Positions 32,389 through 45,843 are shown, counted from the stretch's first letter. The stretch: 64,000 nucleotides of DNA from Steroidobacteraceae bacterium (GCA_019634915.1 JAHCAN010000013.1:10045-74044), one strand, 5' to 3'. Notes: generated by a model not told the origin, from the letters alone. Numbers and translations are program-made.

Positions 32389-32390
32389 CG

Positions 32391-32929: not shown

Positions 32930-34096
32930 CTATTTCTTGCGCTTCCTGGGAAGCCGCGTCCCGCGCGATTCGATCTGCCGCTGCGTGTTCTCCAGCTCCC
33001 TTTGCAACAGCTCGGCATCGGGCAGCACGATCTTGTAGTTCGCCGCCATCACCTTGTTGGGCAAGCCTTCGAGCGCATACCGCGCCAAAGCGTGCCCCTT
33101 GTCGGCGCACAGGATCAGGCCCACGGGCGGGTTCTCGTCGGCCACCATCCAATGCTCCTTCGCATAGTTGCAATACAGGTGCATCTGGCCCACGTCCGCA
33201 TGGGTCAGCGCGCCGAGCTTCAAATCGATGATGACCAGGCAGCGCAAGCGCCGGTGGAAAAACAACAGATCGACGCGATACCAAGTCTGGTCGATGCGCA
33301 AGCGCCGCTGCCGCCCGGCGAAGGTAAATCCGTCACCCAGCTCCAGCAGAAAATCCTCCAGTCGCCGGATCAAGGCTTGTTCGAGGTCGGATTCGGAACA
33401 CTCATCCTTGATGTCAAGGAACTCCAGTACATACGGGTCTTTGATGGCGTCATCCGGCGTGACGGCATCTTCCGGCTTCGGCACGGCGCCCTTGACCAGC
33501 ATCGCCGCCTTGTTCTTCGACAGCGCCGTGCGTTCGTAGAACTGGCTGTTGATCTGCCGGTCGAGCTGGCGCACGCTCCAGCCACCGTGCAGGGCTTCGG
33601 CCTCATAGAATCGACGCGCGTGCTCGTCCTTGACCACCAGCAGCCGCGCATAGGCCGACCACGGTAGCGCGAAGAACTGCGCCAATTCGACAAGGCCCAA
33701 ATTCCCGGACACCGTCTGGGATTTCCCGACCGACAGCGCGCCCCCAGATTTCCCAGACAGTGTCTGGGAAATTGCGGGACGGGGATACGCGAGGAAGAAG
33801 CGCCGCATGTTCTCCAGGTTGTTGACGCCGAACCCGCGCCCGAACTGCGCGGTCAAGTCGGCAGACAGGCGCTCCATCAACTGCTCGCCATAGCCCGCGC
33901 GGCGCTTGCCCCGCTGCTCGGCTTCGACGATGCGGCGGCCTATTTCCCAATAGCTCGCCGTCATCAGCGCATTGACGCTGCGCGCCGCCGCCTGGCGCGC
34001 AGCGTCCAGCAAATCGACGATGCCGCTGTGGATGCCAGCATAGCCAGCCGGCAAGGCGGCGGATTTCCCCACCGCCGAAAGTTTCTTGTTGGTCAC
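32930..34096 (-). CDS. YhcG-family (DUF1016) PDDEXK nuclease-domain protein
   Basis: N-terminal region (AARSVNALMTASYWEIGRRIVEAEQ). C-terminal restriction-endonuclease-like core (IDLLFFHRRLRCLVIIDLKLG). Start placed at the GTG at 34096, downstream of the terminator-like hairpin inside the longer ORF. Confidence 0.8.
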   Translation of the reverse strand: MTNKKLSAVGKSAALPAGYAGIHSGIVDLLDAARQAAARSVNALMTASYWEIGRRIVEAEQRGKRRAGYGEQLMERLSADLTAQFGRGFGVNNLENMRRFFLAYPRPAISQTLSGKSGGALSVGKSQTVSGNLGLVELAQFFALPWSAYARLLVVKDEHARRFYEAEALHGGWSVRQLDRQINSQFYERTALSKNKAAMLVKGAVPKPEDAVTPDDAIKDPYVLEFLDIKDECSESDLEQALIRRLEDFLLELGDGFTFAGRQRRLRIDQTWYRVDLLFFHRRLRCLVIIDLKLGALTHADVGQMHLYCNYAKEHWMVADENPPVGLILCADKGHALARYALEGLPNKVMAANYKIVLPDAELLQRELENTQRQIESRGTRLPRKRKK

Positions 34097-34114
34097 AAAG
34101 CCCCTGCGAATCGT

Positions 34115-34144
34115 TTTGCGCCGATTCGCCACCAGTTCAGCGGC
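34115..34144. repeat. 30-bp direct repeat, copy 2 (TTTGCGCCGATTCGCCACCAGTTCAGCGGC)
   Basis: 29/30 identical to 32091-32120. Confidence 0.85.
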
Positions 34145-34175
34145 CTCGCGCACCGGATCATCCTCGGTGTGAATG

Positions 34176-34201
34176 AAAAAACCGCCCGAAGGCGGCTTTT
34201 T
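34176..34201 (-). terminator. Rho-independent-type hairpin (CCGCC-loop-GGCGG) flanked by A6 and T5 runs, downstream of mazEF
   Basis: Read directly: aaaaaaccgcccgaaggcggcttttt. On the minus strand the stem is followed by T6. Confidence 0.5.
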
Positions 34202-34360
34202 CGTCCCAGGCCAAAGCCAAGTGAATGACCCGGCCAAGGAGGAGTGGTGCGAATACTGTGCCTACCGCTTCCGCGCCTATCAAGCCGATTTTCCGTCTTC
34301 AGGGCACTGAATCTCCGCATCCACCACCAGTGTCACGCCGTGCAGGCCGCCGTATGCCGT

Positions 34361-34705
34361 TTATCCCGCTCCTCCCAGTATCCGCCCTACCCGCTTCATG
34401 ACTTGTCCGAGCACGGCAGCGCTGACGACACCGATCTTCCCGGCGGCAGCCGAATCGATCGTGGCGATCTTCGCCGTGCGGATGACCGACGGCACGGGCA
34501 GACCCGCCGAAGCGAGATCACGCACGGCGACGTCATCAGGCCAGCCGCGATTCTCCGCGCTGGTAATCATCAGGACCCAGGCGAGACCATGTACATCATG
34601 AAGCCGGGCATCCGAGATCACGAGAGCCGGGCGCCATTGCCGGGTGGCGCGGTCGGCGCGCGCGAACGGGACCTTGATGACATCGCCCCGGCTAAAGCTT
34701 TCCAT
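34361..34705 (-). CDS. mazF: PemK/MazF-family toxin
   Basis: Start MESFSRGDVIKVPF (ATG at 34705), followed by RPALVISD...WVLMITSAENRGW...PSVIRTAKIATID. Confidence 0.85.
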   Translation of the reverse strand: MESFSRGDVIKVPFARADRATRQWRPALVISDARLHDVHGLAWVLMITSAENRGWPDDVAVRDLASAGLPVPSVIRTAKIATIDSAAAGKIGVVSAAVLGQVMKRVGRILGGAG

Positions 34706-34910
34706 AGGCCTTGCGGTCGGCGGCGGATTCCCATTCATGGAATGCCCGGAACGGCTCATCGCCTGCGCCATCCCGCTTCACCCTGGAGAGCACGACGCGC
34801 TCGCCATCGATCTCGTACAGCAGCTCGTCCCCCTTCTGCAGGCGCAGCGCCGCGCGCACCGGCTGGGGAATCGTGGTCTGGGCCTTGCTGGTCAGTTTGC
34901 TCGTGATCAT
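34692..34910 (-). CDS. mazE: AbrB/MazE-family antitoxin
   Basis: Start MITSKLTSKAQTTIPQPVRAALRLQKGDEL (ATG at 34910). Overlaps mazF by 14 nt. Confidence 0.8.
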   Translation of the reverse strand: MITSKLTSKAQTTIPQPVRAALRLQKGDELLYEIDGERVVLSRVKRDGAGDEPFRAFHEWESAADRKAYGKL

Positions 34911-35348
34911 CGGGGAAGCTCGCGTGGAGTACCCCGGATGGTAAGGATTTTCCTTACGCACTTCCAGCCGGGCTCGATCACGCACGGAGGATCCGTTGTG
35001 GCGGTGATATCAGCCACGGACGTTTCGGGTGTGAATGTTCTGAATTGGGAGTACGACGTCAGCGCCACCATCGTTGACGCTGCACCATTGGCAGCCGGAG
35101 TACGGACCCAGGAGGGCGGAAGCAGAACTGGCTGCGAGAGCCCGCCCTGCAGTCACCCGTAAGCTCATAATTTATTGATATATATGTATATTTTTACATC
35201 GTGCGTCGCAGAGAGCCCACGAACTATACCCATCCGTGCCTGAGTCGCGACGCTGACCACCTGTGAGCCTCCTCACGTCAGACTTCGACCGCTTCTGACC
35301 TAATACGATTTAACAGTTGGTCGGAACCCGTCAGCGAGAAGTCCCGGA

Positions 35349-36323
35349 ATGCGCGTCTACACCACAGGCGTTTTCGACATCCTTCACCGTGGGCACCTGA
35401 ACATCCTCACTCAGGCCGCCGCCCTGGGTGAACTCACGGTTGGAATCATGAGTGACCAGGGCGTCGAATCCACCAAAGGTACGCGGCCCATCCTGAGCAT
35501 CGATGAGAGGGAAGCGCAGATCCGCTCGCTCCCCTTCGTGACCGAGGTAATCCGCTATACGGACGTAGATCAGCGGCAGAACTACACCGCCATCAAGCCC
35601 GACATCGTCGTGCAGGGAGACGACTGGCTCTTCTCGGAGGATCGCACGAGCGCCATCGGCTATCTGCGCGAGCACGGAATACGCCTTGTGTTGTTGCCGC
35701 GTACCCAGGGCATTTCCACGACCGAGATCCGAAAGCGCGTCGCCCGGTCCGGACGACGGGACGAACGCTTCCTGCGCGAATGCCTACGCATGATCCCGGC
35801 AACCCGGTTGAAGCGCTACGAAGCCTTCGACGAGCCCAAGGTTCTGAAACTGATGCAAAAGATCTCGAGTGAGGGCGTCTTCTTCAACCCCATCTCGATC
35901 GTCAAGGAAATGGTAGTCATCGACGGGGCAAACCGGTTCGAAGCACTGTGCCGACTCGGAGCCCGTGACGTGCCCTGCGTCGTCTACGACTACTCGGATA
36001 TCGACCTGCTGGGCAATGTGCACTTCATCAACGACGGGGTACGCACCCGCTTGTCCGAGTTCGCGCGCGAGGAGGGCGAGCGTATCGAGTTCCCGCGCCG
36101 CACTCCCAAAGACATCCTGGACGCCGCGGAGCAAGGCAGCCTGATACCCAATGGCGAGACGTTTCACCGCGTGCCCCAAAGCGTCGTCCGCTTGCCGATC
36201 CCTCTCGAGAGTCTGGTCGCTGCCCAGCCGTTCGATCTCGGCGCGCATATTGATCAGCTCATCCACGAAGGGCAGATCCGCTTCTATCAGTCGAGTGTCT
36301 ATATCTGCGACGAGTGGCAATGA
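35349..36323 (+). CDS. TagD-like cytidylyltransferase fused to a ParB/sulfiredoxin-like domain
   Basis: N-terminus: TTGVFDILHRGHLNIL (HxGH), VVQGDDW, LPRTQGISTTEIRKR, aligning by eye with B. subtilis TagD. C-terminus: PISIVKEMVVIDGANRFEALCRLGARDVPCVVYDY, resembling the ParB N-terminal domain motif (..IDG.HR.eA...LG....P..V.d). Confidence 0.75.
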   Translation: MRVYTTGVFDILHRGHLNILTQAAALGELTVGIMSDQGVESTKGTRPILSIDEREAQIRSLPFVTEVIRYTDVDQRQNYTAIKPDIVVQGDDWLFSEDRTSAIGYLREHGIRLVLLPRTQGISTTEIRKRVARSGRRDERFLRECLRMIPATRLKRYEAFDEPKVLKLMQKISSEGVFFNPISIVKEMVVIDGANRFEALCRLGARDVPCVVYDYSDIDLLGNVHFINDGVRTRLSEFAREEGERIEFPRRTPKDILDAAEQGSLIPNGETFHRVPQSVVRLPIPLESLVAAQPFDLGAHIDQLIHEGQIRFYQSSVYICDEWQ

Positions 36324-36922
36324 ACATGTCGACGAAGGTGGCAACGGAATTCTGGACATCGCAGAAGCGCTATCCGTTTTCATTCACACGCAAGCGCCGG
36401 CTGCACGAGCTCAATTACCTGGTCCCGCGCCTGGAAAAGCTCGGAGGAAAGCGATTGCTCGACCTCGGCTGCGGCGACGGCTCCCTGCTGGAGTGCCTCC
36501 TCAGGATCACGGATTACGAGGAACTCCATGGATACGATGTCGCAGCGGACCTGCTTGCCGGCATCGATCCGCGCATCAGCACGCGCGTCTACGACATCTC
36601 TGATCCTGGCCCGCTGCCGGAAGTCGATGCCACGATCGTTGCCGGCGTCATCCAGTATGTATTCGATGATGATGTGGTTGACCGCGTATTGTCGCTCGTC
36701 CGCTCACCGATGATCTGGTTGCGCTCCACCTGCACGCTGAAGCCGGAGTGCGAGAGCGTGGAGAGGGACGACTATGCATCGAAATATCGCACCATCGACG
36801 AAACCCGCGCCCTGATCGCGAAGCATTTCAATGTGACCTCCGTCGAGCGCGTATACCCTGACGAGCTCGAGTCGGCCTACGGAACCAAGCAGTTCTACTT
36901 CGAGGGCACGCGGAGACTCTGA
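36314..36922 (+). CDS. Class I SAM-dependent methyltransferase
   Basis: Motif I KRLLDLGCGDGSLLE and post-I acidic residue (LHGYDV). Overlaps the upstream gene by 10 nt. Confidence 0.7.
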   Translation: MAMNMSTKVATEFWTSQKRYPFSFTRKRRLHELNYLVPRLEKLGGKRLLDLGCGDGSLLECLLRITDYEELHGYDVAADLLAGIDPRISTRVYDISDPGPLPEVDATIVAGVIQYVFDDDVVDRVLSLVRSPMIWLRSTCTLKPECESVERDDYASKYRTIDETRALIAKHFNVTSVERVYPDELESAYGTKQFYFEGTRRL

Positions 36923-36926
36923 CGGC

Positions 36927-38192
36927 ATGGGAATCCGAGCCCGCCACGCCCCTGCTCTATTCCTTCTGGTCGCGTGCCTGCACGCACCTGGCGCGCTGGC
37001 TTACATAGATCCGGGTACTGGCAGCGCGCTGTTCTATGTCGTCACCGGAATCGTCGTCTCCGCCTACTTCGCTCTCCGCGGCCTCTACTACCGGACGATC
37101 GAGTTTGCATTCCGGGTCCGCACCCAGGCACAGCATTGCACTGTGGCAATCCATTGTGAGGATCCACGGTATGAGAGCACTTTCATGCCCATCATCCGCC
37201 ACCTTGTGCGCAAAGGCGTGGAACCCACGCTTTTCACCATGTATGAGCGGGACAATACTTATGAGCCACTACCCGCCGGTGTTGCCCATCGAGCCATCTC
37301 CCCGGGCATGCTGGGCTACGCATACCTGAACAATATCGTCGCGGACGTCCTCGTAACGACGACGCCGCAGCTCGATGTCATGACCTTTCGCCGCTCGCCT
37401 CGCGTCAGGCACTACGCCATCGTTCAGCATGCGCTCGGCGAATCCCGCTACGTCCGGCCCTTCGCATACGACAATTACGACTCGGTATTTTGCTGCGGGG
37501 ACATTCTCAAGCAGAACCTTCGACGCATGGAGGAGATTCGTGGGCTGCCTGCCAAGGAATTGTTCGAAGTAGGCCTTCCCCACTACGAAGAACTCTTTCA
37601 GAGAGCGAAGAGCGCACCGCCTCCGCCCGCAGACCGACCGACGGTGCTCGTGGCACCGAGTTGGGGGCCGCTGAGCATGTTCGAATCGTTTGGTGTCGAC
37701 TTCATCTCGGAGATCGCGCGGCAGTATCGGGTGATAGTGCGCCCCCACCCGCAGATGAAAGTCTCACAGCCGGATCTCTACAGGAGGATCGTCGCGCTCG
37801 ATGGAGTTTCCGTCTCGACGCACCGTACGCCGATCGAGGCAATGTCCGAGGCTCACATACTGCTCAGCGATATCTCCGGCATCGCGCATGAGTTCGCATT
37901 CATCTTCGAACGGCCAGTAGTCGTACTTGACCAGAAGCAGGCCGTGGGTGGCCTCGAAGGCGAGCTGCTCGGGGGAGACAGCGAGGTAAAGGCCCGCTGC
38001 AGGGAATTCATCGTACCCGTCGCCCCAGCAGAGATGCCGCGCATCGTGCAACACATCGGACGGGCGCTTCGGCACCACTCGGCCGCCAGGGTGACCGAGG
38101 TCAGGGATCAGCTCATCTACAACTTTGGCAATGCAAGCGAAGTTGCGGCACAGCAGATCGCAGTCTTGCTCGGACGCATGAGGAGTACCTGA
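36927..38192 (+). CDS. CDP-glycerol glycerophosphotransferase family (TagB/TagF-like) enzyme with an N-terminal membrane anchor
   Basis: N-terminal TM (SALFYVVTGIVVSAYFAL). Sequence PTVLVAPSWG...VIVRPHPQ...AHILLSDISGIAHEFAFIFERPVVVLD parallels the YAPTWR / HP / L(I)TDYSS motifs of TagF-family enzymes. Confidence 0.7.
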   Translation: MGIRARHAPALFLLVACLHAPGALAYIDPGTGSALFYVVTGIVVSAYFALRGLYYRTIEFAFRVRTQAQHCTVAIHCEDPRYESTFMPIIRHLVRKGVEPTLFTMYERDNTYEPLPAGVAHRAISPGMLGYAYLNNIVADVLVTTTPQLDVMTFRRSPRVRHYAIVQHALGESRYVRPFAYDNYDSVFCCGDILKQNLRRMEEIRGLPAKELFEVGLPHYEELFQRAKSAPPPPADRPTVLVAPSWGPLSMFESFGVDFISEIARQYRVIVRPHPQMKVSQPDLYRRIVALDGVSVSTHRTPIEAMSEAHILLSDISGIAHEFAFIFERPVVVLDQKQAVGGLEGELLGGDSEVKARCREFIVPVAPAEMPRIVQHIGRALRHHSAARVTEVRDQLIYNFGNASEVAAQQIAVLLGRMRST

Positions 38193-38196
38193 CCTG

Positions 38197-38898
38197 ATGA
38201 AGTCAGCCCTCGACATATTCATACAGCCGCTATTCCAGATCTACGCGTCGTTCTTTGCGTGGCTGCCCCCCTCAGTCGAGCCGGGGATGGCAGTGATCCT
38301 GTTTGGCATCGCACTGAACCTCGCCCTTACGCCGTTCTACAACCACATCGAACGCGGATTGGGCGACAGGCGCCTGAAGCGTGAACGCGTACGGGAGGAC
38401 GTTGCGCGGATGAAGCGCCATTTCCGCGGGCGCGAGCGCTACTTCTACATTCGCGCCGTTCATCGCCAGCATCGCTACCATCCGATCTCCGAACTTGCCG
38501 GTTCGGCTGATCTGTTCCTGCAGGTATTCGTTTTCATCACGGTGTATCACTTCCTGGTCGATTTGCCATTGCTGAATGGAGCATCCTTCGGGCCGATCAG
38601 TGACCTCAGCCAGCCCGACCACCTGCTTCTTGGCATCAACCTGCTGCCGATCGCCATGACAGGCATCAACGCGATCTCGGTGCTGGCGTACATCGATGAG
38701 CCGCGCAAGCGATTGCAGGCGATCTCGTTGGGGCTGATCTTCCTCGTCCTGCTGTATCGCAGCCCATCCGGGATGGTGCTCTACTGGACGACCAACAACC
38801 TGTTTTCGCTGGTACGAACGGTCATCCAGCGCCGACAGCTTTTCCGGCTGCCGGCCTCGCTGCGGGAATTCATCGGCCGCCTGTCGCTGCAACAATGA
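38197..38898 (+). CDS. Short YidC/Oxa1-family membrane insertase-like protein
   Basis: 233 aa, about 5 TM segments. Basic loop (RLKRERVREDVARMKRHFRG) and C-terminal signature GMVLYWTTNNLFSLVRTVIQRR, resembling the conserved YidC (60KD_IMP) core. Confidence 0.6.
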   Translation: MKSALDIFIQPLFQIYASFFAWLPPSVEPGMAVILFGIALNLALTPFYNHIERGLGDRRLKRERVREDVARMKRHFRGRERYFYIRAVHRQHRYHPISELAGSADLFLQVFVFITVYHFLVDLPLLNGASFGPISDLSQPDHLLLGINLLPIAMTGINAISVLAYIDEPRKRLQAISLGLIFLVLLYRSPSGMVLYWTTNNLFSLVRTVIQRRQLFRLPASLREFIGRLSLQQ

Positions 38899-40946
38899 CC
38901 TTGCTGTTGTTTCTCATCGATGCCGCATTGTTGTTTGCGGCTTTTCGCCTCCTCAGCTCGCCGCGCCACAGGCTGCCCACGCTCTGGAGATTCGCTGCCG
39001 CTGCGCTGCTGCTTTTCATCGTCTCGGCAGCAAGCCTCTGGGTCGCTTGCCGTGAGGAGACTGGGCTCGCGCTCGCCCTGGCAGCTGCCACCGGTAGTCT
39101 GGGCATACATGGACGGGGGCTTGCAGACTTCACGGCAGCTCTGGGTCGATGGCGATTGCCGGTCTTCCTATTGTCCGCCTCGACGATCATCGCGCTGACG
39201 TTCTTCGCCATTCCGGTCGCGACGTTTCTCAGTTCCCCGGAGGAACTGCAGATCGGCACAGATTTCCTCCTCGAGACCAACGCACGCAAGGCCGTGCTTT
39301 TCCTCTATGCCGCGCTCATTGCCTATGCGCTGGCATTTACCCCGCGCATGCGCACGTTGCTGACCATGGCTGCGCTGTGGCTGCTCGTTGTCGTACTGGT
39401 ATACGCATACATACTCCCACTTGGTTATCCGATCATGTCGGGCCTTGCGTTCGAGCAGCTGCCGACGGCGACCGATGTCCTGATCCTCAGGTCTGCCGCG
39501 GACCTGGTTCTGGTGTCGTTGCTGGCCGCAGCCGTCAGCCTGCTCGTATTGAAAATCGATCCGCGCCGCCTGACGCTGTGCGTAGGCTTGCTTGGTCTTT
39601 CCATCTTCGCTACGGCCGGTGCGGGATTGCTTCGGGCGGCAAGTACAAACGCCGTACCTGCGGGCAGCGACGAGATCGAGGCGATGCAACCTCTGGCCTA
39701 CTCTGCGAATCATCCCAATGCCCTCGTACTGTTCCTGGACCGATTCATGGGCTCCTATGTGGAGACGATTCTGGAACGTGACCCCGAGCTTCGCGATCGA
39801 CTGAGTGGCTTCGTCTGGTATCCGAGGACCGTGTCGGCGGGTCAGAATTCGATCGCTGGGGTACACCCGATGTTTGGCGGCTACGACTACACGCCGGACG
39901 CAATGAACGCCCGCGGCCGGCCACTGAAGGATCTGTCCGTCGAAGCCTTTTCGATCCTCCCCTACAACTTCTCGAAAAAAGGCTATCAGGTCAATGTCGT
40001 GAACCCTCGCGGCCTCGGGTTCACGGTGATGGGCGATTGTTCGAGGATACAAATCGCCAATGTCCGCTGCACGCACCTGCCCACGTCCGTGCTCGCACAA
40101 GAGGCGAAAGCCATGGACTTTCCATTGGGCGAGATCGCCAAGTCCGGATATACGGATCTGCTGGTGCTCCTGGCCTCCATGCGCGCGGCCCCCTATTCCA
40201 TCAAGGAAGTCATCTACCAGAAGGGCCCATGGAGGCAATTCCTGGATCACTCTGCAGGCACTACGTTCAAGGAGTGGGCCGCGCTGAAAGCCTTGCCCAG
40301 GCTCTCCACCGTGTCGGAGAGGCCCCCAACGCTCAACATCCTCTCCAACATCCTCCCGCACGAACCCTACTACCTCGGCGAAGACTGTCGGCCGCATCAG
40401 CATCGGCTCGATCTACCGCTCGAGCAAGTACGCCAGCGTGGCGAAACGAGCCTGTTTGGCCTGCAGCACGCCATTGCCGCCAGATGTGCGCTGCTGCTCG
40501 TCGCCGATTACATCGATTTCCTGAAGCGATCCAACGTGTATAACAACACGAAGATCGTCATCGTATCCGACCATGGCATCGTCGGAAACGTCGAGGACAC
40601 ATCAAGCCGCGCGGTGGCCGGTGGTACAACATCGAACGATTACGTACGCACAAGATCGGTACTGCTGGTCAAGCCGATAGGCGCAACTGGCCCGCTGCGG
40701 GTCTCCGAGGATTTCATGCCGAACGCCGAAGTTCCCCGGATCGTTTGCGAAGACATTGGCGGCTGCGTCAACCCTTACCTGGCGGACAAGCCGATCGACA
40801 CTGCGGGGCGTAACGATCCGTTCCGAGTATTCGTCGTGCCGTGGCAGTTCAGGGCCCAGAATGCCGACTCATTCGTCATCCGGCGTGAGCTCGAGTTGCG
40901 CGGCAAGGATCCCTATGCCGCCAGCGGCTGGCACGTCGTAAAGTGA
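38895..40946 (+). CDS. Polytopic membrane protein with a C-terminal alkaline-phosphatase/sulfatase-fold domain (LtaS/OpgB-like phosphotransferase)
   Basis: The start overlaps the upstream stop (ATGA). About 270 aa of TM helices, then NALVLFLDRFMGSY, SAGQNSIAGVHPMFGG, LPHEPYY and KIVIVSDHG. Confidence 0.6.
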   Translation: MTLLLFLIDAALLFAAFRLLSSPRHRLPTLWRFAAAALLLFIVSAASLWVACREETGLALALAAATGSLGIHGRGLADFTAALGRWRLPVFLLSASTIIALTFFAIPVATFLSSPEELQIGTDFLLETNARKAVLFLYAALIAYALAFTPRMRTLLTMAALWLLVVVLVYAYILPLGYPIMSGLAFEQLPTATDVLILRSAADLVLVSLLAAAVSLLVLKIDPRRLTLCVGLLGLSIFATAGAGLLRAASTNAVPAGSDEIEAMQPLAYSANHPNALVLFLDRFMGSYVETILERDPELRDRLSGFVWYPRTVSAGQNSIAGVHPMFGGYDYTPDAMNARGRPLKDLSVEAFSILPYNFSKKGYQVNVVNPRGLGFTVMGDCSRIQIANVRCTHLPTSVLAQEAKAMDFPLGEIAKSGYTDLLVLLASMRAAPYSIKEVIYQKGPWRQFLDHSAGTTFKEWAALKALPRLSTVSERPPTLNILSNILPHEPYYLGEDCRPHQHRLDLPLEQVRQRGETSLFGLQHAIAARCALLLVADYIDFLKRSNVYNNTKIVIVSDHGIVGNVEDTSSRAVAGGTTSNDYVRTRSVLLVKPIGATGPLRVSEDFMPNAEVPRIVCEDIGGCVNPYLADKPIDTAGRNDPFRVFVVPWQFRAQNADSFVIRRELELRGKDPYAASGWHVVK

Positions 40947-41077
40947 CGCGCACGACTGATAGCCCAGCCTGCTGCACCGGGCTGGGTGTGAGCCACCTCT
41001 AGAAAACGCCGCTCGAGATCCGGCCTGCAGATGTGATTTGATATAAGACGACGATCACTGGCACTGCTGGTTCCCGC

Positions 41078-43147
41078 ATGCACGCCCCGTTGCAGTCACC
41101 ATCGACCCGTCCCCGGTTGCAGGGGCTGGGCGTTGCATGCGCACTCGGGATCGCATTCATGCTCCTCTCGTTCCTGAGGACGCTTGGCGATACGGGGTCC
41201 ATGAAATTCGGCGACATTGCCATACGCACAGCCATGGAGACACCGCTGTGGGGCACTTCGCTCGGGCGCAGCCTGGCGTATTTCGTGTTCGCGCAGCTGC
41301 TCGCACACCTTACGTTCGCCGCGCTGTGTTGGGCACTCGCCTGTCTGACGCACTACGCATGGCCGGGCACGAGCGTGACACGTCGGCAATGGGTTCTGAT
41401 CTGGTTCATCGCAGGCGCAGCTTGGGTGATGCTCGCAAATGCGTCTCTGTTTCCGACCTCGTCGCTCGGCGAGCCCTACTCCAGCGTTGGCACCATGCAT
41501 GTATTCGGACTGCCGCTGTACTTGGTGGCAGGCTTGGGTCTCGCGGTTGCGATCTCGATCTGCCTGATACGTTGCCTCGCAAATCCCCCGTTGCGTCGGA
41601 CGCGCATAGGCGGGATAGCTGTATTGAGCGTGATCATCGGCGCCGGCGTACTAGGCGTCTTTGCAATGGCAGCCCCATCCAACCCGCCGCAAGCCACGCA
41701 GACGAACAGGCCGCACGTAATCATCATCGGGATCGATTCACTGCGTGCTGATCTCGCGACTGGGCCTGATGCGGCCATGGTCATGCCGAATCTGGCTGCT
41801 TTCCTGACTGAGTCGGTTGTATTCAACGACGCAATGACGCCACTTGCCCGGACGTTTCCGAGTTGGGTATCGATACTCACCGGCAAGCACCCACACACGA
41901 CCGGCGCGGTCGTCAACCTGCTGCCGCGGGAGATGATCAGGACCGGAACGACATTGCCACAGGCACTGCGCGATCACGGCTATCAGGCCTTTTACGCCAT
42001 AGACGAGTCGCGTTTCTCGAATATCGACGAGACTTATGGATTTGATCGCATTGCCGCACCGCCTTTTGGTGCAGCAGACTTCCTGCTCAGCACCATCAGC
42101 GACGCGCCGCTGACGAACCTTATTGTGAACACGCGCCTGGGCGCCTGGCTCACCCCGAATTCGTATGCCAATCGGGGTGCGGCCATGCTTTATGACCCCG
42201 ATACGTTCATCGACAGGGTGAGTCACGAGGCGCAGTTTGATCGCCCCACTTTCCTGGCTGTTCACCTGACCCTGGCACACTGGCCATTTACATGGGCCAG
42301 GTCGCCCCGCCTACACGAAACTCACGGGCCGCCACGACTGCGCGAGAAGTACTACAACGCCGCACACAGGGTGGACCGGCAATTTGGTGACCTGCTCGAA
42401 TTGCTACGTAGTAAGGGCGCCTTCGAGAACGCCGTCGTCGTCGTTCTCTCGGATCATGGCGAAGCCTTGGGCGATCCGGACGAAACGCGCTACCCGTACG
42501 AGATCATGGGGGAGAATCGTGACACCGTTCAAATCAACGGACATGGTACGAGTGTGTTCTCGCCGCATCAGTATCAGGTGCTGTTCGCGATGCGTTCCTT
42601 CGGGAATAGCCTGCTGAAATCGCGGTGCGGCCCAGCGATCAATGCCCCCGTGTCGGTGATCGACGTCTACCCCACAATGATGGATGCGTTGGGTATCGAA
42701 TCCCAGGAACAATTCGATGGCAGATCGCTGGTTCCGCTTCTGGCGCAATCGGCCTCGACGGCTTGCGCAACTTTCCAGGATCGCATCCGCTTCACCGAAA
42801 CGGAGTTCAATCCTCCCGGCATTACGCCCGACGGTCCGATCTCCGCGAGCGCCATCGAAAAAGTACGGTACTACTACGATGTACTACCGTCGAACGGCCG
42901 AATGCAGATCCGCCGTGAGATCGTACCGACGCTGCTCAAGCAACGGCAGTACGCGGCGATCATGGGAGAGTCGATGGTTGCCGCTGTACCGGTTCCTGGC
43001 GATTCGAGATTCCGGTACTTCATAAGCGACCAGAAAACCCGGATGCCTCGTGAGATCGCTGGAGCACCCGACTCCGCCAGCGATCCGGTCGTGAGCAAAC
43101 TGTACGAAGCACTGCAATTCCGATTTTCGCTTGCGCCGCGAAGCTGA
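41078..43147 (+). CDS. Polytopic membrane protein with a sulfatase-fold domain (phospho-headgroup transferase-like)
   Basis: TM-rich N-terminus, then RPHVIIIGIDSLRADL, TPLARTFPSWVSILTGKHPHTTG, VVVVLSDHGEALGD and NGHGTS, which are classical sulfatase/AP-superfamily metal and nucleophile motifs. Confidence 0.7.
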   Translation: MHAPLQSPSTRPRLQGLGVACALGIAFMLLSFLRTLGDTGSMKFGDIAIRTAMETPLWGTSLGRSLAYFVFAQLLAHLTFAALCWALACLTHYAWPGTSVTRRQWVLIWFIAGAAWVMLANASLFPTSSLGEPYSSVGTMHVFGLPLYLVAGLGLAVAISICLIRCLANPPLRRTRIGGIAVLSVIIGAGVLGVFAMAAPSNPPQATQTNRPHVIIIGIDSLRADLATGPDAAMVMPNLAAFLTESVVFNDAMTPLARTFPSWVSILTGKHPHTTGAVVNLLPREMIRTGTTLPQALRDHGYQAFYAIDESRFSNIDETYGFDRIAAPPFGAADFLLSTISDAPLTNLIVNTRLGAWLTPNSYANRGAAMLYDPDTFIDRVSHEAQFDRPTFLAVHLTLAHWPFTWARSPRLHETHGPPRLREKYYNAAHRVDRQFGDLLELLRSKGAFENAVVVVLSDHGEALGDPDETRYPYEIMGENRDTVQINGHGTSVFSPHQYQVLFAMRSFGNSLLKSRCGPAINAPVSVIDVYPTMMDALGIESQEQFDGRSLVPLLAQSASTACATFQDRIRFTETEFNPPGITPDGPISASAIEKVRYYYDVLPSNGRMQIRREIVPTLLKQRQYAAIMGESMVAAVPVPGDSRFRYFISDQKTRMPREIAGAPDSASDPVVSKLYEALQFRFSLAPRS

Positions 43148-43301: not shown

Positions 43302-43317
43302 TGGCACGCCCGTTGCT
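43302..43317 (+). promoter_or_regulatory. Sigma54 (-24/-12) promoter of pilA: TGGCAC-GCCCG-TTGCTT
   Basis: Matches the consensus TGGCAC-N5-TTGCW exactly in the GG/GC dinucleotides and spacing. Lies about 80 nt upstream of the pilA ATG, and PilS/PilR is encoded in the same window. Confidence 0.7.
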
Positions 43318-43395: not shown

Positions 43396-43899
43396 ATGAA
43401 GACCATGCAGAAGGGTTTCACCCTCATCGAGTTGATGATCGTCGTGGCGATCATCGGCATTCTCGCCGCGATCGCGATCCCGGCGTATCAGGACTACACG
43501 ATCCGCTCGCAGGTAACGGAGGGTCTCAACCTCGCATCGGCCGTCAAGGCGGGCGTTGCGGAGGCTTATGCGAATACGGGCGTGTGGCCGGCGGATCTGG
43601 ACGCCGCCGGTGGCGATAATGCCAACCCGCCGTCGGGCAAGTATGTCGCCGGTATCGAGGTCAACGACGGCACGATCGAGATCACCTACGGTGGCCAGGC
43701 CAACGCCAACATTTCGGGTGCAAACAACCTGCTCGCGTTGCGCCCTGTCATCAGCCCGAACGATGACGTGGTCTGGCTCTGCGGCAACAACGACGGCACG
43801 GGCGCCAGCGGCCTCACGGACCCGTCGAGCGGTGGGTCGCCGACAACCGCCACCACGGTACTGCCCAAGTACCTGCCGCAGTCCTGCCGCGCGCAGTAA
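43396..43899 (+). CDS. pilA: Type IVa major pilin PilA
   Basis: AAGGAG ribosome-binding site. Leader MKTMQKG / [27 protein letters not shown] (G-1, F+1, E+5). Two C-terminal Cys residues (LC...SCRAQ) bound a Ser/Thr-rich loop. Confidence 0.95.
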
Positions 43900-43975: not shown

Positions 43976-44100
43976 GGGAGCCGAATCACGCAGGCCCCCG
44001 GCCCTCTGTGCGACCATCCCGCCAGATTTGACAATTGCCCGGAGGCTACCCTCCGGTACACTACCGGTTTGACGGATCGCTGGCCGCTTGCTGCAAGTGC

Positions 44101-45843
44101 ATGAACGATAACGCTTCTCTCGCCATCGGGGGCTCCCGCTCCGCCCTCGGCGGGCTGCCTCAGCGGCTCGTCCAGGACGGGCTCGTCGACGAGCCGACGA
44201 TGCACTCGGCGCTGCAGAACGCCCGGGACCGCAAGTCGGGGTTCGTCACCCAGTTGATCGGGATGGGCGCCGCGAGGGCCCGCGATATCGCGGTCTCGGC
44301 CTCGCACGAATTCGGTGTACCTCTGCTCGACCTCGACAGCCTGGCGGTCGACCTCGACCTGGTCCGGCTCGTCAACGACAAGCTGCTTGCCAAGCATCGC
44401 GTGCTGCCGCTGTACCGGCGCGGCAAGCGCCTGTTCCTCGCGGTCGCCGACCCGACCAACCTGCATGCGATCGACGAGATCAAGTTCGCGACCGGCCTCG
44501 GCATCGACGCGATCGTCGTCGAGGACGACAAGCTGCAGCGCGCCGTCGACAAGGCGATCGAACAGGTCGACACGCAGATGCCGAACCTCACGGATGAGGA
44601 AGGCATGGACCTCGAGGGCCTCGAGGTCAGCGGCGGCGACGACGATGCCGGCGAAGCCGTCACGCGCGACGACGTGGACGATGCGCCGATCGTCAAGTTC
44701 GTCAACAAAGTGATGCTCGACGCGATCCGGCGCGGCGCCTCGGACATCCATTTCGAGCCCTACGAGAAGATGTACCGGGTGCGCTATCGCATGGACGGCG
44801 TGCTGAAGGAAGTCGCGCAGCCGCCGGTGCAGCTCTCGCAGAAGATCTGCGCGCGCATCAAGGTGATGTCGCGGCTCGACATCGCCGAGCGCCGCGTGCC
44901 GCAGGACGGCCGCATCAAGATGAAGCTGTCGAAGACGCGGGCGATCGACTTCCGCGTCAGCACCTGCCCCACGCTCTACGGCGAGAAGATCGTCGCGCGT
45001 ATCCTCGATCCCTCGCAGGCGATGCTCGGCATCGACGCGCTCGGCTACGAGCCGTTCCAGAAGGAGCTCTACCTCAAGTACCTGGAGAAGCCGCAGGGCA
45101 TGATCCTGGTCACGGGCCCGACCGGCAGCGGCAAGACCGTGTCGCTCTACACCGGCCTCAATATCCTGAACCGGGAAGACACGAACATCTCGACCGCGGA
45201 GGACCCGGCGGAAATCAACCTGCCCGGTGTCAACCAGGTGAACGTGAACCCGAAGGTGGGTCTCACGTTCGCTTCCGCGCTGCGCGCCTTCCTGCGCCAG
45301 GACCCGGACGTCGTAATGGTCGGCGAGATCCGCGACCTCGAAACGGCGGAGATCGCGATCAAGGCCGCCCAGACGGGCCACCTGGTGCTCTCGACGCTGC
45401 ACACGAACGATGCGCCGCAGACCCTGACCCGCATGATCGACATGGGCGTGAAGCCCTATGCGATCGCGACCTCGGTGAGCCTGATCATCGCGCAGCGCCT
45501 CGCGCGGCGCCTGTGCACACAGTGCAAGCACCTCGTCGACATTCCGGCCGAGGCGCTGATCAAGGAAGGCTTCTCGAAGGAAGACGTCGCGGCGGGCATC
45601 AAGGTCTACGGCCCCAAGGGCTGCCAGGCCTGCACCGACGGCTACAAGGGCCGCATGGGCATATACCAGGTGCTGCCGGTCACAGACGAAATCGGCCGGA
45701 TCATCATGGAAGGCGGCAACGCGATCCAGATCGGCGATGAAGCGAAGAAAATGGGTGTCTGGGACCTGCGCCGCTCCGGGCTCGAGAAAGTGAAACAGGG
45801 CATGACGAGCCTCGAAGAGATCAACAGCGTCACGATCGAGTGA
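44101..45843 (+). CDS. pilB: Type IV pilus assembly ATPase PilB
   Basis: Start MNDNASLAI. Walker A GPTGSGKT, Asp/His boxes, and a tetracysteine motif (CTQCK...CQAC). Confidence 0.95.
   Translation: MNDNASLAIGGSRSALGGLPQRLVQDGLVDEPTMHSALQNARDRKSGFVTQLIGMGAARARDIAVSASHEFGVPLLDLDSLAVDLDLVRLVNDKLLAKHRVLPLYRRGKRLFLAVADPTNLHAIDEIKFATGLGIDAIVVEDDKLQRAVDKAIEQVDTQMPNLTDEEGMDLEGLEVSGGDDDAGEAVTRDDVDDAPIVKFVNKVMLDAIRRGASDIHFEPYEKMYRVRYRMDGVLKEVAQPPVQLSQKICARIKVMSRLDIAERRVPQDGRIKMKLSKTRAIDFRVSTCPTLYGEKIVARILDPSQAMLGIDALGYEPFQKELYLKYLEKPQGMILVTGPTGSGKTVSLYTGLNILNREDTNISTAEDPAEINLPGVNQVNVNPKVGLTFASALRAFLRQDPDVVMVGEIRDLETAEIAIKAAQTGHLVLSTLHTNDAPQTLTRMIDMGVKPYAIATSVSLIIAQRLARRLCTQCKHLVDIPAEALIKEGFSKEDVAAGIKVYGPKGCQACTDGYKGRMGIYQVLPVTDEIGRIIMEGGNAIQIGDEAKKMGVWDLRRSGLEKVKQGMTSLEEINSVTIE

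What the first reader, a model, noticed from the sequence alone, without database searches (positions are those of the whole stretch)
35161..43147. Teichoic-acid-like phospho-polyol transfer cluster between pilR and pilA: candidate pilin or envelope phosphoform system
Seen in sequence:
- Six same-strand ORFs. Five are separated by 4 nt or less or overlap (35349-40946), and one follows after 131 nt.
- G+C is visibly lower than the flanks, and an AT-rich stretch begins the segment (35161-35215).
- Motif-based calls: a TagD-like cytidylyltransferase (HxGH, LPRTxGISTT), a SAM methyltransferase, a TagB/TagF-type glycerophosphotransferase, a short YidC-like insertase, and two polytopic proteins with periplasmic sulfatase-fold domains (DSLRAD / SDHGE).

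Established knowledge:
- TagD makes CDP-glycerol and TagB/TagF polymerise glycerol phosphate in Gram-positive wall teichoic acid synthesis.
- LtaS, OpgB, EptA and PptA-type AP-superfamily enzymes transfer phospho-headgroups to extracytoplasmic acceptors.
- Neisseria PptA and PptB decorate pilin with phosphoethanolamine, phosphocholine or phosphoglycerol.
- In Pseudomonas, pilin-specific modification genes lie next to pilA.

Inference: the cluster ends 150 nt before the sigma54 pilA promoter, and the pilin has a Ser/Thr-rich C-terminal loop. A pilin (or cell-envelope) glycerophosphate or related phosphoform decoration pathway is therefore plausible. I know of no described pathway with this gene composition in a Gram-negative pilus locus.
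Basis: partly seen in the sequence, partly recalled or inferred. Interest (0 to 1): 0.85.

Follow-up and report, generated by a model that had tools for sequence, protein, structure and literature searches.

The report
Pilin-linked phospho-headgroup transfer gene cluster
Next to the type IV pilin gene lie two separable things, a pilin-locus membrane phosphotransferase gene and a mobile five-gene cassette that probably makes a CDP-activated head group and passes it across the inner membrane; the cassette's three transfer genes sit beside pilin genes in three bacterial families, so an undescribed pilin (or envelope) decoration pathway is likely, but no experiment shows it.

Summary
In detail: there are six same-strand ORFs, five of them translationally coupled, with low G+C and the predicted domains.

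The segment is two units, not one.
- **O6** (41078-43147) is a membrane alkaline-phosphatase (AP)-superfamily enzyme with a Thr nucleophile. It belongs to the pil locus. In 80 metagenome loci, a pilin lies within 1 kb of the relative in 63. No locus with enough flank lacks a pilin.
- **O1-O5** (35349-40946) is a relocating cassette:
  - a cytidylyltransferase fused to a SerK/SbnI-like kinase domain;
  - a methyltransferase;
  - a membrane-anchored TagF-like transferase;
  - a YidC-like protein that lacks the groove arginine;
  - an 8-TM AP-superfamily protein.

The invariant part is O3-O4-O5. This triad also lies beside pilin genes in Hydrogenophaga and Xanthomonas, with different or no activation genes. 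In about six Steroidobacteraceae-type loci it sits far from pil genes. O4 and O5 are fused in many relatives.

A pilin phospho-form pathway is the best reading (about 0.55). The chemical group is unknown, and glycerophosphate is not established. The cluster is not directly next to pilR: a 7.3-kb toxin-antitoxin island intervenes.

The parts
24793..26430 (+). pilS sensor kinase
   Evidence: tblastn with Povalibacter PilS: 50% identity over residues 10-540.
26427..27845 (+). pilR sigma54 activator
   Evidence: tblastn with Povalibacter PilR: 63% identity over its full length. Translation.
27846..35160 (-). Island of small toxin-antitoxin and nuclease genes lying between pilR and the cluster; not part of the system
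   Evidence: Pfam hits: HTH + Gp49, PIN, HVO_A0114, BrnT, PIN, YhcG/DUF1016, PemK and PrlF/MazE. G+C is 0.624. No Rfam match in 27500-44200 and no tRNA in the window.
35161..35215 (.). AT-rich stretch (31% G+C) at the upstream edge of the cassette
   Evidence: No sigma70-type consensus was found by the simple scan.
35349..36323 (+). O1: cytidylyltransferase (residues 1-133) fused to a SerK/SbnI-like ParB-fold domain (residues 142-324)
   Evidence: - PF01467, E 9e-18.
- Profile against PDB: ECT 3elb, TagD 1coz and 5x3d for the N-domain.
- Profile against PDB: SbnI 5ujd/6nr6 at E 8e-13 over both halves, and SerK 5x0b at 1e-8, for the C-domain.
- 66-88% identical in 120 listed homologues.
36314..36922 (+). 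O2: SAM-dependent methyltransferase (probable start at the ATG at 36320)
   Evidence: - Weak Methyltransf_12/23/25 hits.
- Conserved at 64-73% identity in all cassettes.
- Distantly related (24-27%, E 6e-5 and 6e-8) to the methyltransferases of the Hydrogenophaga-type loci L100 and L105, which are 36-37% identical to the L103 one.
36927..38192 (+). O3: TagB/TagF-like phosphotransferase (GT-B fold) with two N-terminal hydrophobic helices joined by an invariant YIDPGTGS loop
   Evidence: - Glyphos_transf 19.5 bits, below threshold; the Xanthomonas orthologue scores 23.8, above threshold.
- AF2 model pLDDT 81.7.
- Top three Foldseek PDB hits are TagF 3l7k/3l7l/3l7j at E 4e-12; TarL 8va1 also matches.
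- Hydropathy; alignment.
38197..38898 (+). O4: short YidC/Oxa1-family protein with invariant Asn41 where YidC has its groove arginine
   Evidence: - PF02096, 59 bits.
- Profile against PDB YidC structures at E 2e-9; the alignment puts Asn on the Arg of the T. maritima and E. coli YidC.
- Fused to O5 in P0273, P0279 and P0354 and in distant relatives.
38895..40946 (+). O5: protein with about eight N-terminal membrane helices (residues 1-251) and an AP-superfamily domain outside the membrane (residues 265-683); candidate catalytic residues D282, S319, D559, H560
   Evidence: - AF2 model pLDDT 85.
- Foldseek: phosphonate monoester hydrolase, YejM/PbgA (full length) and LtaS at E about 1e-6.
- The candidate residues are invariant in 14 and in 29 sequences.
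- Many homologues carry PF00884.
41078..43147 (+). O6: pil-locus accessory gene; 5-6 membrane helices plus an AP-superfamily domain; D220, T259 (in ARTFPSW), D459/H460 and H489 invariant
   Evidence: - PF00884 at E 1.5e-30 and Phosphodiest at 2.6e-16.
- Alignment A2.
- Relatives lie within 1 kb of a pilin gene in 63 of 80 metagenome loci.
43302..43316 (+). sigma54-type -24/-12 element of pilA
   Evidence: It is the only TGGCAC-N5-TTGC match in the window; 0.06 are expected by chance.
43396..43899 (+). pilA, major type IV pilin, with a Gly/Ser/Thr-rich loop between the two C-terminal cysteines
   Evidence: Translation. 61% identical to the Povalibacter pilin. C-terminal regions compared.
44035..47941 (+). 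pilB, pilC, pilD
   Evidence: ORFs. These ORFs, used as tblastn queries, find 52-85% identical genes in the related loci; in the annotated ones (L002, L018) those genes carry the pilB, pilC and pilD Pfam domains.

Best explanation
The segment holds two units that probably work on the same substrate.

**Unit 1: O6.** O6 is a membrane-anchored alkaline-phosphatase (AP)-superfamily transferase with a Thr nucleophile. It is a standing accessory gene of the pilA locus in this lineage. By analogy with PptA, PptB and EptA, it most likely moves a phospho-head group from a membrane lipid onto the pilin on the periplasmic side.

**Unit 2: O1-O5.** This is a translationally coupled cassette for a cytoplasm-to-periplasm phospho-head-group relay.
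1. The SerK/SbnI-like domain of O1 phosphorylates a small hydroxyl compound.
2. The cytidylyltransferase domain of O1 turns the product into a CDP-activated form.
3. The O2 methyltransferase modifies it.
4. O3 is a TagF-like enzyme held at the inner face of the membrane by a helical hairpin. It transfers the phospho-group from the CDP donor to a membrane-bound acceptor.
5. O4 is a YidC-like protein without the groove arginine. It works as the partner of O5, either moving the lipid-linked intermediate across the membrane or building and holding O5.
6. The external AP-type domain of O5 (Ser nucleophile) delivers the group to its final target.

The most likely target is the major pilin PilA.

**Shown:**
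- domain and fold assignments;
- conservation of catalytic-type residues;
- operon structure;
- synteny;
- O4-O5 fusions.

**Inferred:**
- every chemical step;
- the identity of the head group;
- the role of O4;
- the target.
For: **Domains and folds**
- O1.
- O3.
- O4.
- O5.
- O6.

**Operon structure.** O1-O5 are coupled by gaps of 4 nt or less, or by overlaps.

**O6 and pilA**
- A pilin lies within 1 kb in 63 of 80 loci and within 1.9 kb in 3 more.
- The other 14 loci are all cut by a contig end within 750 bp on at least one side.
- In 34 loci the O6-type gene lies directly downstream of pilA on the same strand, like known pilin accessory genes.
- O6 evolves fast: median identity 40%, against 74% for PilB.

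**The triad and pilin genes in three families**
- Steroidobacteraceae-type loci: window, L002, L007, L008, L009, L018, in both orientations.
- Hydrogenophaga sp. H7 and a relative, with a different activation set: methyltransferase, SerB-like HAD and IspD-type nucleotidyltransferase.
- Xanthomonas sp. XNM01: pilA, two sulfatase-family genes (the first one scanned is OpgB-like), O3-O4-O5, then a free-standing SerK-like domain.

**O4 and O5 as partners**
- They are fused in three close relatives.
- They are fused in all eight long distant relatives that were tested.

**Literature**
- PptA is an AP-superfamily enzyme that puts phosphoethanolamine or phosphocholine on pilin, and its donor pathway is unknown (PMC10434233).
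- PptB adds phosphoglycerol to PilE Ser93 (PMC8445170).
- Insertases, YidC included, scramble lipids (10.1101/2023.09.01.555937).
Against: - No biochemical or mass-spectrometric data exist for any member.
- Among loci found through cassette proteins, about six have no pilin gene within 10 kb: P. soli, the S. gossypii type, L004/L014, L006, L017 and L103.
- Distant YidC-AP fusion relatives occur in Spirochaetales, so the wider family is not specific to pili.
- The pilR-pilA gap also holds a toxin-antitoxin island here and transposases in L018. It may simply be a place where foreign DNA lands.
- The low GC3 of O1-O6 fits horizontal acquisition.
- Steroidobacteraceae loci are not phylogenetically independent.
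- O3 and O5 reach family thresholds only through orthologues or predicted folds.
- The Ser/Thr content of pilin C-termini differs only slightly between cassette-linked pilins (0.17-0.27) and other pilins (0.12-0.22).
Confidence: 0.55

Rival explanations
1. The cassette decorates another envelope molecule with a phospho-head group, for example LPS core or lipid A, periplasmic glucans, an exopolysaccharide or a membrane lipid. It lies near pilA only because the variable region around pilA is a landing site for acquired DNA. O6 may still act on pilin.
For: - About six of the loci found through cassette proteins are far from any pilin gene.
- One of them lies near an MprF-type lipid-modification gene.
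- The same gap holds toxin-antitoxin genes and transposases.
- GC3 is low.
- Related YidC-AP fusions occur in Spirochaetales.
- Characterised relatives of the AP-type fold act on lipid A, glucans, cellulose or teichoic acids (established knowledge; PMC10525099 and PMC3818809 were listed but not read).
- A TagF-type gene lies in a Xanthomonas LPS cluster (PMC12573098).
Against: - The same triad, and no other recurrent cargo, sits beside pilin genes in three families with unrelated local architectures.
- In L105 and in Xanthomonas XNM01 it stands in one same-strand array that starts at the pilin gene.
- Pilin modification genes need not be linked to the pilin gene; to my recollection Neisseria pptA is not next to pilE (not checked here). 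Unlinked copies therefore do not exclude pilin as the target.
Confidence: 0.3
2. The cassette makes a teichoic-acid-like poly(glycerol phosphate) or poly(polyol phosphate) chain, as the first reader's TagD/TagF reading implies. The chain is polymerised by O3 on a lipid anchor and then exported or attached by O5.
For: - The best structural matches of O3 are the polymerases TagF and TarL.
- The O1 N-domain matches TagD (1coz, E 1e-17).
- The LtaS fold is among the O5 matches.
Against: - O1 reaches only 64 bits against the 165-bit cut-off of the glycerol-3-phosphate cytidylyltransferase equivalog. It matches ECT and RfaE domain II as well or better.
- The fused SerK-like kinase domain and the ever-present methyltransferase have no role in CDP-glycerol synthesis.
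- The cluster has no TagO/TagA-type primer enzymes and no TagGH or KpsMT-type ABC exporter.
- The fold search cannot tell a polymerase from a single-addition enzyme such as TagB.
Confidence: 0.1
3. O4 is only a dedicated insertase or chaperone for the polytopic O5. It has no part in moving a lipid-linked intermediate, and O5 takes its head group from an ordinary phospholipid, as EptA and LtaS do. O1-O3 would then supply a special phospholipid head group at the inner leaflet.
For: - O4 is a clear YidC/Oxa1 family member.
- Fusion to O5 fits a built-in assembly factor as well as it fits a catalytic partner.
- AP-type transferases characterised so far use phospholipid donors (established knowledge; PMC10434233).
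Against: - The groove arginine of YidC is replaced by an invariant Asn in all 16 O4 sequences. That suggests a changed function.
- The cell presumably has its own housekeeping YidC. This is an inference; none lies in the window.
Confidence: 0.35

Closest known systems
Neisseria pilin phospho-form transferases PptA (phosphoethanolamine/phosphocholine) and PptB (phosphoglycerol)
   Same: - Both are membrane enzymes acting on the type IV pilin outside the cytoplasm.
- PptA is an AP-superfamily protein (PMC10434233). O6 and O5 have the same superfamily fold and catalytic-type residues.
- The donor pathway for phosphocholine on pilin is still unknown.
   Different: - O6 gave no hit to any EptA, CptA or PEtN-transferase model in Pfam or NCBIfam. 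Its domain is nearest to true sulfatases in sequence.
- The Neisseria enzymes work alone; to my recollection they use phospholipid head groups and are not next to pilE.
- Here there is in addition a CDP-dependent cytoplasmic branch with a TagF-like enzyme and a YidC-like protein.
Wall teichoic acid enzymes TagD, TagB and TagF (CDP-glycerol pathway)
   Same: - The cytidylyltransferase has the HxGH and RTxGISTT motifs.
- O3 has a GT-B fold whose best PDB matches are TagF and TarL.
- As in the teichoic acid pathway, the reaction would take place at the inner face of the membrane on a membrane-bound acceptor; this placement is inferred.
   Different: - O1 is below the equivalog cut-off for TagD and is fused to a kinase-like domain.
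- A methyltransferase is always present.
- There are no TagO/TagA/TagGH partners.
- The host is Gram-negative.
- The downstream partners are a YidC-like protein and an AP-type transferase instead of an ABC exporter and an LCP ligase.
Three-component extracytoplasmic glycosylation systems (GtrA/GtrB/GtrC; CsbB/GtcA/YfhO)
   Same: The logic I propose is the same. A cytoplasmic-face transferase loads a lipid carrier from a nucleotide-activated donor. A small membrane protein moves the loaded carrier across. A large polytopic enzyme transfers the group outside.
   Different: - None of the proteins is homologous.
- The group moved would be a phospho-alcohol, not a sugar.
- The resemblance is a working analogy from my own knowledge and was not tested here.
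Pilin accessory genes next to pilA in Pseudomonas (TfpO, TfpW, TfpX/Y/Z = FimB-like)
   Same: - Gene position: directly downstream of pilA on the same strand in 34 loci.
- Fast divergence along with the pilin.
- FimB-like genes sit between the pilin and the AP-type genes in Hydrogenophaga. TfpO and TfpW modify pilin and block pilus phages (PMC11841053).
   Different: The Pseudomonas proteins are glycosyltransferases or assembly factors, not AP-superfamily phosphotransferases. In the papers I searched, no AP-type pilA neighbour is described.
Free serine kinases SerK and SbnI (ParB/Srx fold)
   Same: - The O1 C-domain aligns to both halves of SbnI (E 8e-13) and to SerK (E 1e-8).
- The Glu and Asp that I recall as catalytic (SbnI E20 and D58; SerK E30) align with the invariant E158 and D192 of O1. 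The paper could not be opened.
   Different: - Scores are far below the NCBIfam equivalog cut-offs (35 bits against 380).
- O1 is fused to a cytidylyltransferase.
- The substrate is unknown.

Membership tests
Cytidylyltransferase-like (PF01467), O1 N-domain | Pfam domain above the gathering score, with the HxGH and RTxGISTT motifs | tested here: met
   65.3 bits against a threshold of 21. HRGH at residues 13-16 and RTQGISTT at 118-125; in alignment A1, H13, G15, H16, R118, I122, S123 and T124 are invariant and T119 and G121 nearly invariant.
TagD, glycerol-3-phosphate cytidylyltransferase (TIGR01518 equivalog), O1 | Score above the curated equivalog cut-off | tested here: not met
   64 bits against a cut-off of 165.4. 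RfaE domain II scores higher (81.8 bits), and ECT 3elb and 5x3d match better than TagD 1coz.
SerK/SbnI free serine kinases, O1 C-domain | Full-length similarity plus the catalytic Glu/Asp | tested here: inconclusive
   The profile hits both halves of SbnI at E 8e-13, but NCBIfam scores are 35 and 27 bits against cut-offs of 380 and 350. The aligned Glu and Asp are invariant; their catalytic role is recalled from memory, not read.
TagB/TagF CDP-glycerol glycerophosphotransferases (PF04464), O3 | Pfam domain above the gathering score | tested here: inconclusive
   The window protein scores 19.5 bits against 22.1. The Xanthomonas orthologue scores 23.8; the Hydrogenophaga-type orthologues score 19.8 and 20.3, always on profile region 149/158-291. 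Some homologues carry a precomputed PF04464.
TagB/TagF, O3 | GT-B fold closest to TagF | tested here: met
   The model has pLDDT 81.7. The top three PDB hits are TagF at E 4e-12 with TM 0.53-0.56, and TarL also matches; generic GT-B enzymes follow closely.
TagB/TagF, O3 | Use of CDP-glycerol as donor | not testable with these tools
   This needs an enzyme assay.
YidC/Oxa1 insertases (PF02096), O4 | Pfam domain above the gathering score | tested here: met
   59.4 bits against 35. The profile hits YidC structures at E 2e-9.
YidC/Oxa1 insertases, O4 | Conserved arginine in the hydrophilic groove (E. coli R366, by my recollection of the numbering) | tested here: not met
   Asn41 is invariant in all 16 O4 sequences and aligns with that Arg in the T. 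maritima and E. coli YidC.
Alkaline-phosphatase superfamily / Sulfatase (PF00884), O5 | Domain match, fold, and metal-ligand and nucleophile positions | tested here: met
   - The window protein has no Pfam hit at threshold, but many orthologues and fused relatives carry PF00884.
- The fold matches phosphonate monoester hydrolase, YejM and LtaS at E about 1e-6.
- D282, S319, D559 and H560 are invariant. Their assignment as ligands and nucleophile is by spacing and is an inference.
Sulfatases proper (formylglycine enzymes), O6 | C/S-x-P-x-R motif at the nucleophile position | tested here: not met
   The motif reads T-F-P-S-W; T259 is invariant in 7 sequences. PF00884 itself is met at E 1.5e-30.
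PptA/EptA-type phosphoethanolamine transferases, O6 | Similarity to EptA/CptA family models, including the N-terminal membrane domain | tested here: not met
   No EptA, CptA or PEtN-transferase model was hit in Pfam or NCBIfam. In contrast, the pilin-linked gene of L105 hits CptA at E 1e-44.
Pilin accessory gene (operational definition), O6 | Conserved position next to the major pilin gene | tested here: met
   63 of 80 loci are within 1 kb. No locus with enough flank lacks a pilin.
Wall teichoic acid gene cluster, whole segment | Presence of a primer glycosyltransferase (TagO/TagA type) and an ABC exporter (TagGH type) | tested here: not met
   None is among the six ORFs or their neighbours. 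The rest of the genome could not be checked.

The most novel reading that the evidence does not exclude
The O3-O4-O5 triad is a new kind of three-component relay for decorating proteins outside the cytoplasm.
- A TagF-like enzyme loads a phospho-head group from a CDP donor onto a lipid at the inner leaflet.
- An arginine-less YidC-like protein, often fused to its partner, has been recruited from protein insertion to move that lipid-linked group across the membrane.
- An AP-superfamily enzyme puts the group on the type IV pilin.

The head group would be a methylated amino-alcohol phosphate made de novo, of the phosphocholine or N-methyl-phosphoethanolamine kind. That would supply the donor pathway that is still missing for phosphocholine on pilins.
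Probability: 0.2. Interest if true: 0.9.

Novelty: new variant of a known kind. Interest (0 to 1): 0.7.

Why it matters
**Background.** Pilin decorations change pilus bundling, adhesion, immune recognition and phage attachment. Only glycosylation (TfpO, TfpW, PglL) and the single-enzyme Neisseria phospho-forms (PptA, PptB) are understood.

**If this reading is right:**
- AP-superfamily transferase genes are common, fast-evolving pilA accessory genes in environmental Proteobacteria. That would be a whole class not covered by current pilin-accessory schemes.
- A CDP-dependent, multi-protein route to an extracytoplasmic phospho-form exists. It joins teichoic-acid-type chemistry to a YidC-like membrane partner.

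**YidC-AP fusions.** The YidC-AP fusion family has hundreds of 50%-identity clusters and reaches into Spirochaetales. It would give a concrete case in which to test whether an Oxa1-family protein has taken on lipid handling.

**Testability.** Culturable carriers exist: Hydrogenophaga sp. H7, Xanthomonas sp. XNM01, Peristeroidobacter soli JW-3 and Steroidobacter gossypii S1-65. The hypothesis can therefore be tested directly.

Tried and rejected
- **An RNA operon or pseudogenised pilS/pilR in 27.8-35.2 kb.** This was considered because the stretch has no long ORFs. Rejected: no Rfam family and no tRNA, and the small ORFs are toxin-antitoxin and nuclease genes.
- **Exact-sequence look-up of O3.** Nothing is on record.
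- **Sequence profiles against PDB.** O3 found nothing and O5 found only the SDHG region. Predicted structures were therefore used.
- **Plasmid search with O3.** No match.
- **Repeats flanking the cluster as insertion scars.** None flanks O1-O6.
- **Simple promoter and terminator scan.** No sigma70-type site, and terminator-like sites at the chance level.
- **Ser/Thr richness of pilin C-termini.** Tested as a signature of cassette-linked pilins. The difference is too small to use.
- **Substrate of O1 and O2.** The models do not discriminate.
- **SbnI paper.** It could not be opened, so the catalytic residues are quoted from memory.
- **Literature searches.** None of seven searches of the held library turned up a paper describing this cassette or AP-type pilA neighbours. 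Subscription journals are mostly missing from that library.

Full report
**1.

- O1 to O5 are joined by overlaps or 4-nt gaps. The O4/O5 junction is an ATGA overlap, and O2 has an in-frame ATG at 36320 that would overlap the O1 stop in the same way.
- O6 follows O5 after 131 nt.
- The segment has 0.60 G+C, against 0.663 for the window. Its GC3 is 0.70-0.78, against 0.85-0.91 in pilA-D and pilS/R. The stretch 35161-35215 is 31% G+C.
- The quoted motifs are present.
- Pfam and NCBIfam give CTP_transf_like plus a ParB/SerK-like tail for O1, weak methyltransferase hits for O2, a sub-threshold Glyphos_transf hit for O3, 60KD_IMP for O4, nothing at threshold for O5, and Sulfatase/Phosphodiest for O6.
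- The only TGGCAC-N5-TTGC site in the window is at 43302-43316, 154 nt after O6 and 80 nt before pilA.

One point is wrong. pilS and pilR lie at 24793-27845. The 7.3 kb between pilR and the cluster hold small minus-strand toxin-antitoxin and nuclease genes: HTH/Gp49, two PIN, BrnT, HVO_A0114, YhcG/DUF1016 and PemK with PrlF/MazE. This stretch has no Rfam match (27500-44200 searched) and the window has no tRNA gene.

**2. The segment is two units**

*The cassette O1-O5.* Homologues of O1 are 66-88% identical (one is 99%), and the named ones come from Steroidobacteraceae (Peristeroidobacter soli, Povalibacter, Steroidobacter). Where a whole cassette is on the contig, O1-O5 occur complete and in the same order in all of these loci. 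Their location varies.
- Between pilR and pilA, in either orientation: the window, L002 (Povalibacter), L007, L008, L009 and L018. In L018 transposases stand where pilR would be.
- About 4 kb from pilS, beyond sucCD and nadE: L019.
- With no pilin gene within 10 kb:
  - ligA-[cassette]-ppiC in P. soli;
  - mscL-[cassette]-epimerase in L006;
  - a serpin context in L004 and L014;
  - a malectin/molybdopterin context in L017;
  - a PhoH/peptidase context in Steroidobacter gossypii.

*O6.* O6-like genes appear only where a pilin gene is present. They never accompany the cassette when it is elsewhere. I therefore scanned metagenome contigs with an O6 alignment.
- Of the 80 best loci, 63 have a pilin within 1 kb of the O6-like gene, and 3 more within 1.9 kb.
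- The other 14 are all cut by a contig end less than 750 bp from the gene on at least one side.
- Only 5 of the 80 carry cassette genes.
- The usual order is pilS pilR pilA O6 pilB pilC pilD. The O6-like gene is downstream of pilA on the same strand in 34 loci, upstream on the same strand in 15, divergent in 13 and convergent in 1. Thirteen loci have two or three copies.
- O6 relatives are 34-50% identical (median 40%), while PilB in the same loci has a median of 74%. That is the pattern expected of a gene that co-evolves with a variable pilin.

**3. What the proteins are**

*O1.*
- The N-domain matches cytidylyltransferases of several specificities about equally: 5x3d, human ECT, TagD and CCT in PDB, and RfaE domain II best in NCBIfam. 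It is far below the TagD equivalog cut-off.
- The C-domain aligns with both halves of the free serine kinase SbnI (E 8e-13) and with archaeal SerK.
- The Glu and Asp that I recall as catalytic in those enzymes align with the invariant E158 and D192. I could not open the paper to confirm this.

*O3.*
- It has two N-terminal hydrophobic helices joined by an invariant YIDPGTGS loop, followed by a GT-B domain.
- The predicted structure (pLDDT 81.7) finds TagF as its three best PDB matches, and also TarL.
- The Xanthomonas orthologue passes Pfam's Glyphos_transf threshold.

*O4.* It is a short YidC/Oxa1 protein. In all 16 orthologues an Asn stands where YidC has its groove arginine.

*O5.*
- It has about eight membrane helices and an AP-superfamily domain. 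The model has pLDDT 85 and matches phosphonate monoester hydrolase, full-length YejM/PbgA and LtaS.
- D282, S319, D559 and H560 are invariant.

*O6.*
- It has five or six membrane helices and an AP domain that is closest to true sulfatases in sequence.
- It carries Thr259 (ARTFPSW) where sulfatases have the formylglycine Cys/Ser. D220, D459/H460 and H489 are also invariant. That points to phospho-transfer, not sulfate ester hydrolysis.

**4. The invariant core is O3-O4-O5, and it meets pilins again in other families**

O3 homologues include Hydrogenophaga sp. H7 and a Moraxellaceae MAG.
- **Hydrogenophaga sp. H7 (L100).** O3-O4-O5 are followed by a 253-aa methyltransferase, a SerB-like HAD-IB protein and an IspD/NTP_transf_3 nucleotidyltransferase. 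They converge on a sulfatase-family gene, a FimB-like gene and two pilin genes.
- **A relative (L105).** The whole set lies on one strand: pilin, pilin, FimB-like gene, an AP-like 469-aa gene, a CptA/EptA-like transferase, two spermidine-synthase-like membrane proteins, O3-O4-O5, methyltransferase, HAD, nucleotidyltransferase.
- **Xanthomonas sp. XNM01 (L104).** pilA is followed on the same strand by two sulfatase-family genes. The first is OpgB-like (E 2e-67 to phosphoglycerol transferase I, below the cut-off), and the second is its 46%-identical paralogue. Then come O3-O4-O5 and a free-standing 133-aa protein homologous to the O1 C-domain, with pilB further on. No cytidylyltransferase or methyltransferase is nearby.
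- **L103.** It has a 255-aa methyltransferase and a stand-alone PF01467 enzyme (38% identical to the O1 N-domain) before O3-O4-O5, with no pilin in reach.

The methyltransferases of L100, L103 and L105 form one family, and those of L100 and L105 are weakly related to O2.

So a methyltransferase, a cytidylyltransferase of changing type and a kinase-like or phosphotransferase-like protein recur with the triad. That is hard to square with plain CDP-glycerol. It points to a modified, probably methylated, phospho-alcohol. I cannot say which one.

**5. O4 and O5 belong together**

- Three close O5 relatives are O4-O5 fusions of 837-847 aa.
- An exhaustive search with O5 finds 2164 cluster representatives at E<0.001 and 338 at E<1e-30. 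Most of the more distant ones are 850-1250 aa, with the O5-like part starting near residue 250-430.
- All eight long ones tested have an N-terminal 60KD_IMP domain, and seven also have a Sulfatase domain.
- The two with informative names come from Spirochaetales and Candidatus Haliotispira prima. An unfused 614-aa relative occurs in Pseudomonas putida-group species.
- The wider family is therefore not tied to pili.

**6. Mechanism I think most likely**

- O1 and O2 make a CDP-activated head group in the cytoplasm.
- O3 is anchored by its hairpin with the catalytic domain inside. It puts the phospho-group on a membrane-bound acceptor.
- O4 and O5 handle that intermediate, and O5 transfers the group outside the membrane.
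- O6 and its counterparts in the other families (CptA-like, OpgB-like) are pilin-locus transferases of the PptA/PptB kind.
- The YidC-like partner may flip the intermediate, since insertases including YidC scramble lipids (10.1101/2023.09.01.555937). Or it may simply assemble O5.
- All chemical steps are inferences.

**7. Comparison with what is known**

- PptA is an AP-superfamily enzyme that adds phosphoethanolamine or phosphocholine to Neisseria pilin, and its phosphocholine donor pathway is unknown (PMC10434233).
- PptB adds phosphoglycerol to PilE Ser93 (PMC8445170).
- The known pilA-adjacent accessory proteins are glycosyltransferases or TfpY/FimB-like assembly factors (PMC11841053).
- None of my seven searches of the held library turned up a paper describing AP-type pilA neighbours or this cassette. 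Much of the subscription literature is not held.
- O6 is not a PptA/EptA family member by sequence.
- O1 is not a TagD equivalog.
- O4 fails the groove-arginine test for YidC.

**8. Weighing the pilin link**

Loci found through O1, O3 or O5 avoid the bias of the O6 scan.
- Nine of them are beside a pilin gene: the window, L002, L007, L008, L009, L018, L100, L104 and L105.
- One (L019) is near pilS.
- About six have no pilin gene within 10 kb.

A pilin neighbourhood of 20 kb is roughly 0.4% of a 5-Mb genome (the genome size is assumed), so the enrichment is large. Three families with different local layouts give some independence.

Against this:
- the Steroidobacteraceae loci share ancestry;
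- the pilA region also collects toxin-antitoxin genes and transposases;
- the cluster looks horizontally acquired.

I put the pilin target at about 0.55 and another envelope target at about 0.3.

**9. Verdict**

- It is best classed as a new variant of a known kind: extracytoplasmic phospho-form decoration, probably of pilin.
- Two sub-findings are worth following up on their own: the widespread pilA-linked AP-type accessory genes and the YidC-like/AP-type partnership.

Noticed in passing
window 27846-35160: A 7.3-kb island of minus-strand toxin-antitoxin and nuclease genes lies between pilR and the cluster. Pfam gives HTH + Gp49, two PIN, BrnT, HVO_A0114, YhcG/DUF1016 and PemK + PrlF/MazE. 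G+C is 0.624. The pilR-pilA gap looks like a landing site for acquired DNA.
   Followed up: partly
window 32091-32120 and 34115-34144: A 30-nt direct repeat (97% identical, 2024 nt apart) brackets most of the YhcG/DUF1016 gene. The second copy lies inside the gene's 5' part. It may be an insertion scar.
   Followed up: no
window 29442-30185: A 247-aa + strand ORF inside the toxin-antitoxin island has a hydrophobic C-terminal half and no Pfam match.
   Followed up: no
L104 4841-7942 (Xanthomonas sp. XNM01): Two sulfatase-family genes lie directly downstream of pilA on the same strand. The first is OpgB-like (phosphoglycerol transferase I, E 2e-67, below the cut-off), and the second is 46% identical to it. 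Both are candidate PptB-like pilin phosphoglycerol transferases in a plant-associated genus.
   Followed up: partly
L105 5759-8020: Two membrane proteins with spermidine-synthase (aminopropyltransferase)-like domains sit between the CptA-like transferase and the O3-O4-O5 triad, in the same-strand array that starts at the pilin genes. Their role is unexplained.
   Followed up: no
proteins P0373-P0508; P0396 from Candidatus Haliotispira prima: There is a large family of 850-1250-aa proteins with an N-terminal YidC-like domain fused to a polytopic AP-superfamily part. The named members come from Spirochaetales and are annotated only as 'YidC/Oxa1 family insertase'. One member also carries an NPCBM domain. 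Their gene neighbourhoods could not be inspected.
   Followed up: partly
L077 1279-7384; L015 3-449: Two incomplete cassettes. L077 has O6-like genes followed by O3-O4-O5, with O1 and O2 missing. L015 has only the 3' half of O1, at the contig start and abutting ppiC (the P. soli context). These are either deletions or assembly errors.
   Followed up: no
L005 (CAYSKN010000176.1): A 6.7-kb contig whose O1-O5 proteins are 99-100% identical to the window's is filed under 'uncultured Gemmatimonas sp.'. All other close relatives are Steroidobacteraceae or Pseudomonadota, so this is probably a binning error.
   Followed up: no
window 40947-41000: A GC-rich stem-loop (CCCAGCC...GGGCTGGG) lies directly after the O5 stop, without a T-run. 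It may separate transcription of O1-O5 from O6. It was seen by eye and was not picked up by the terminator scan.
   Followed up: no
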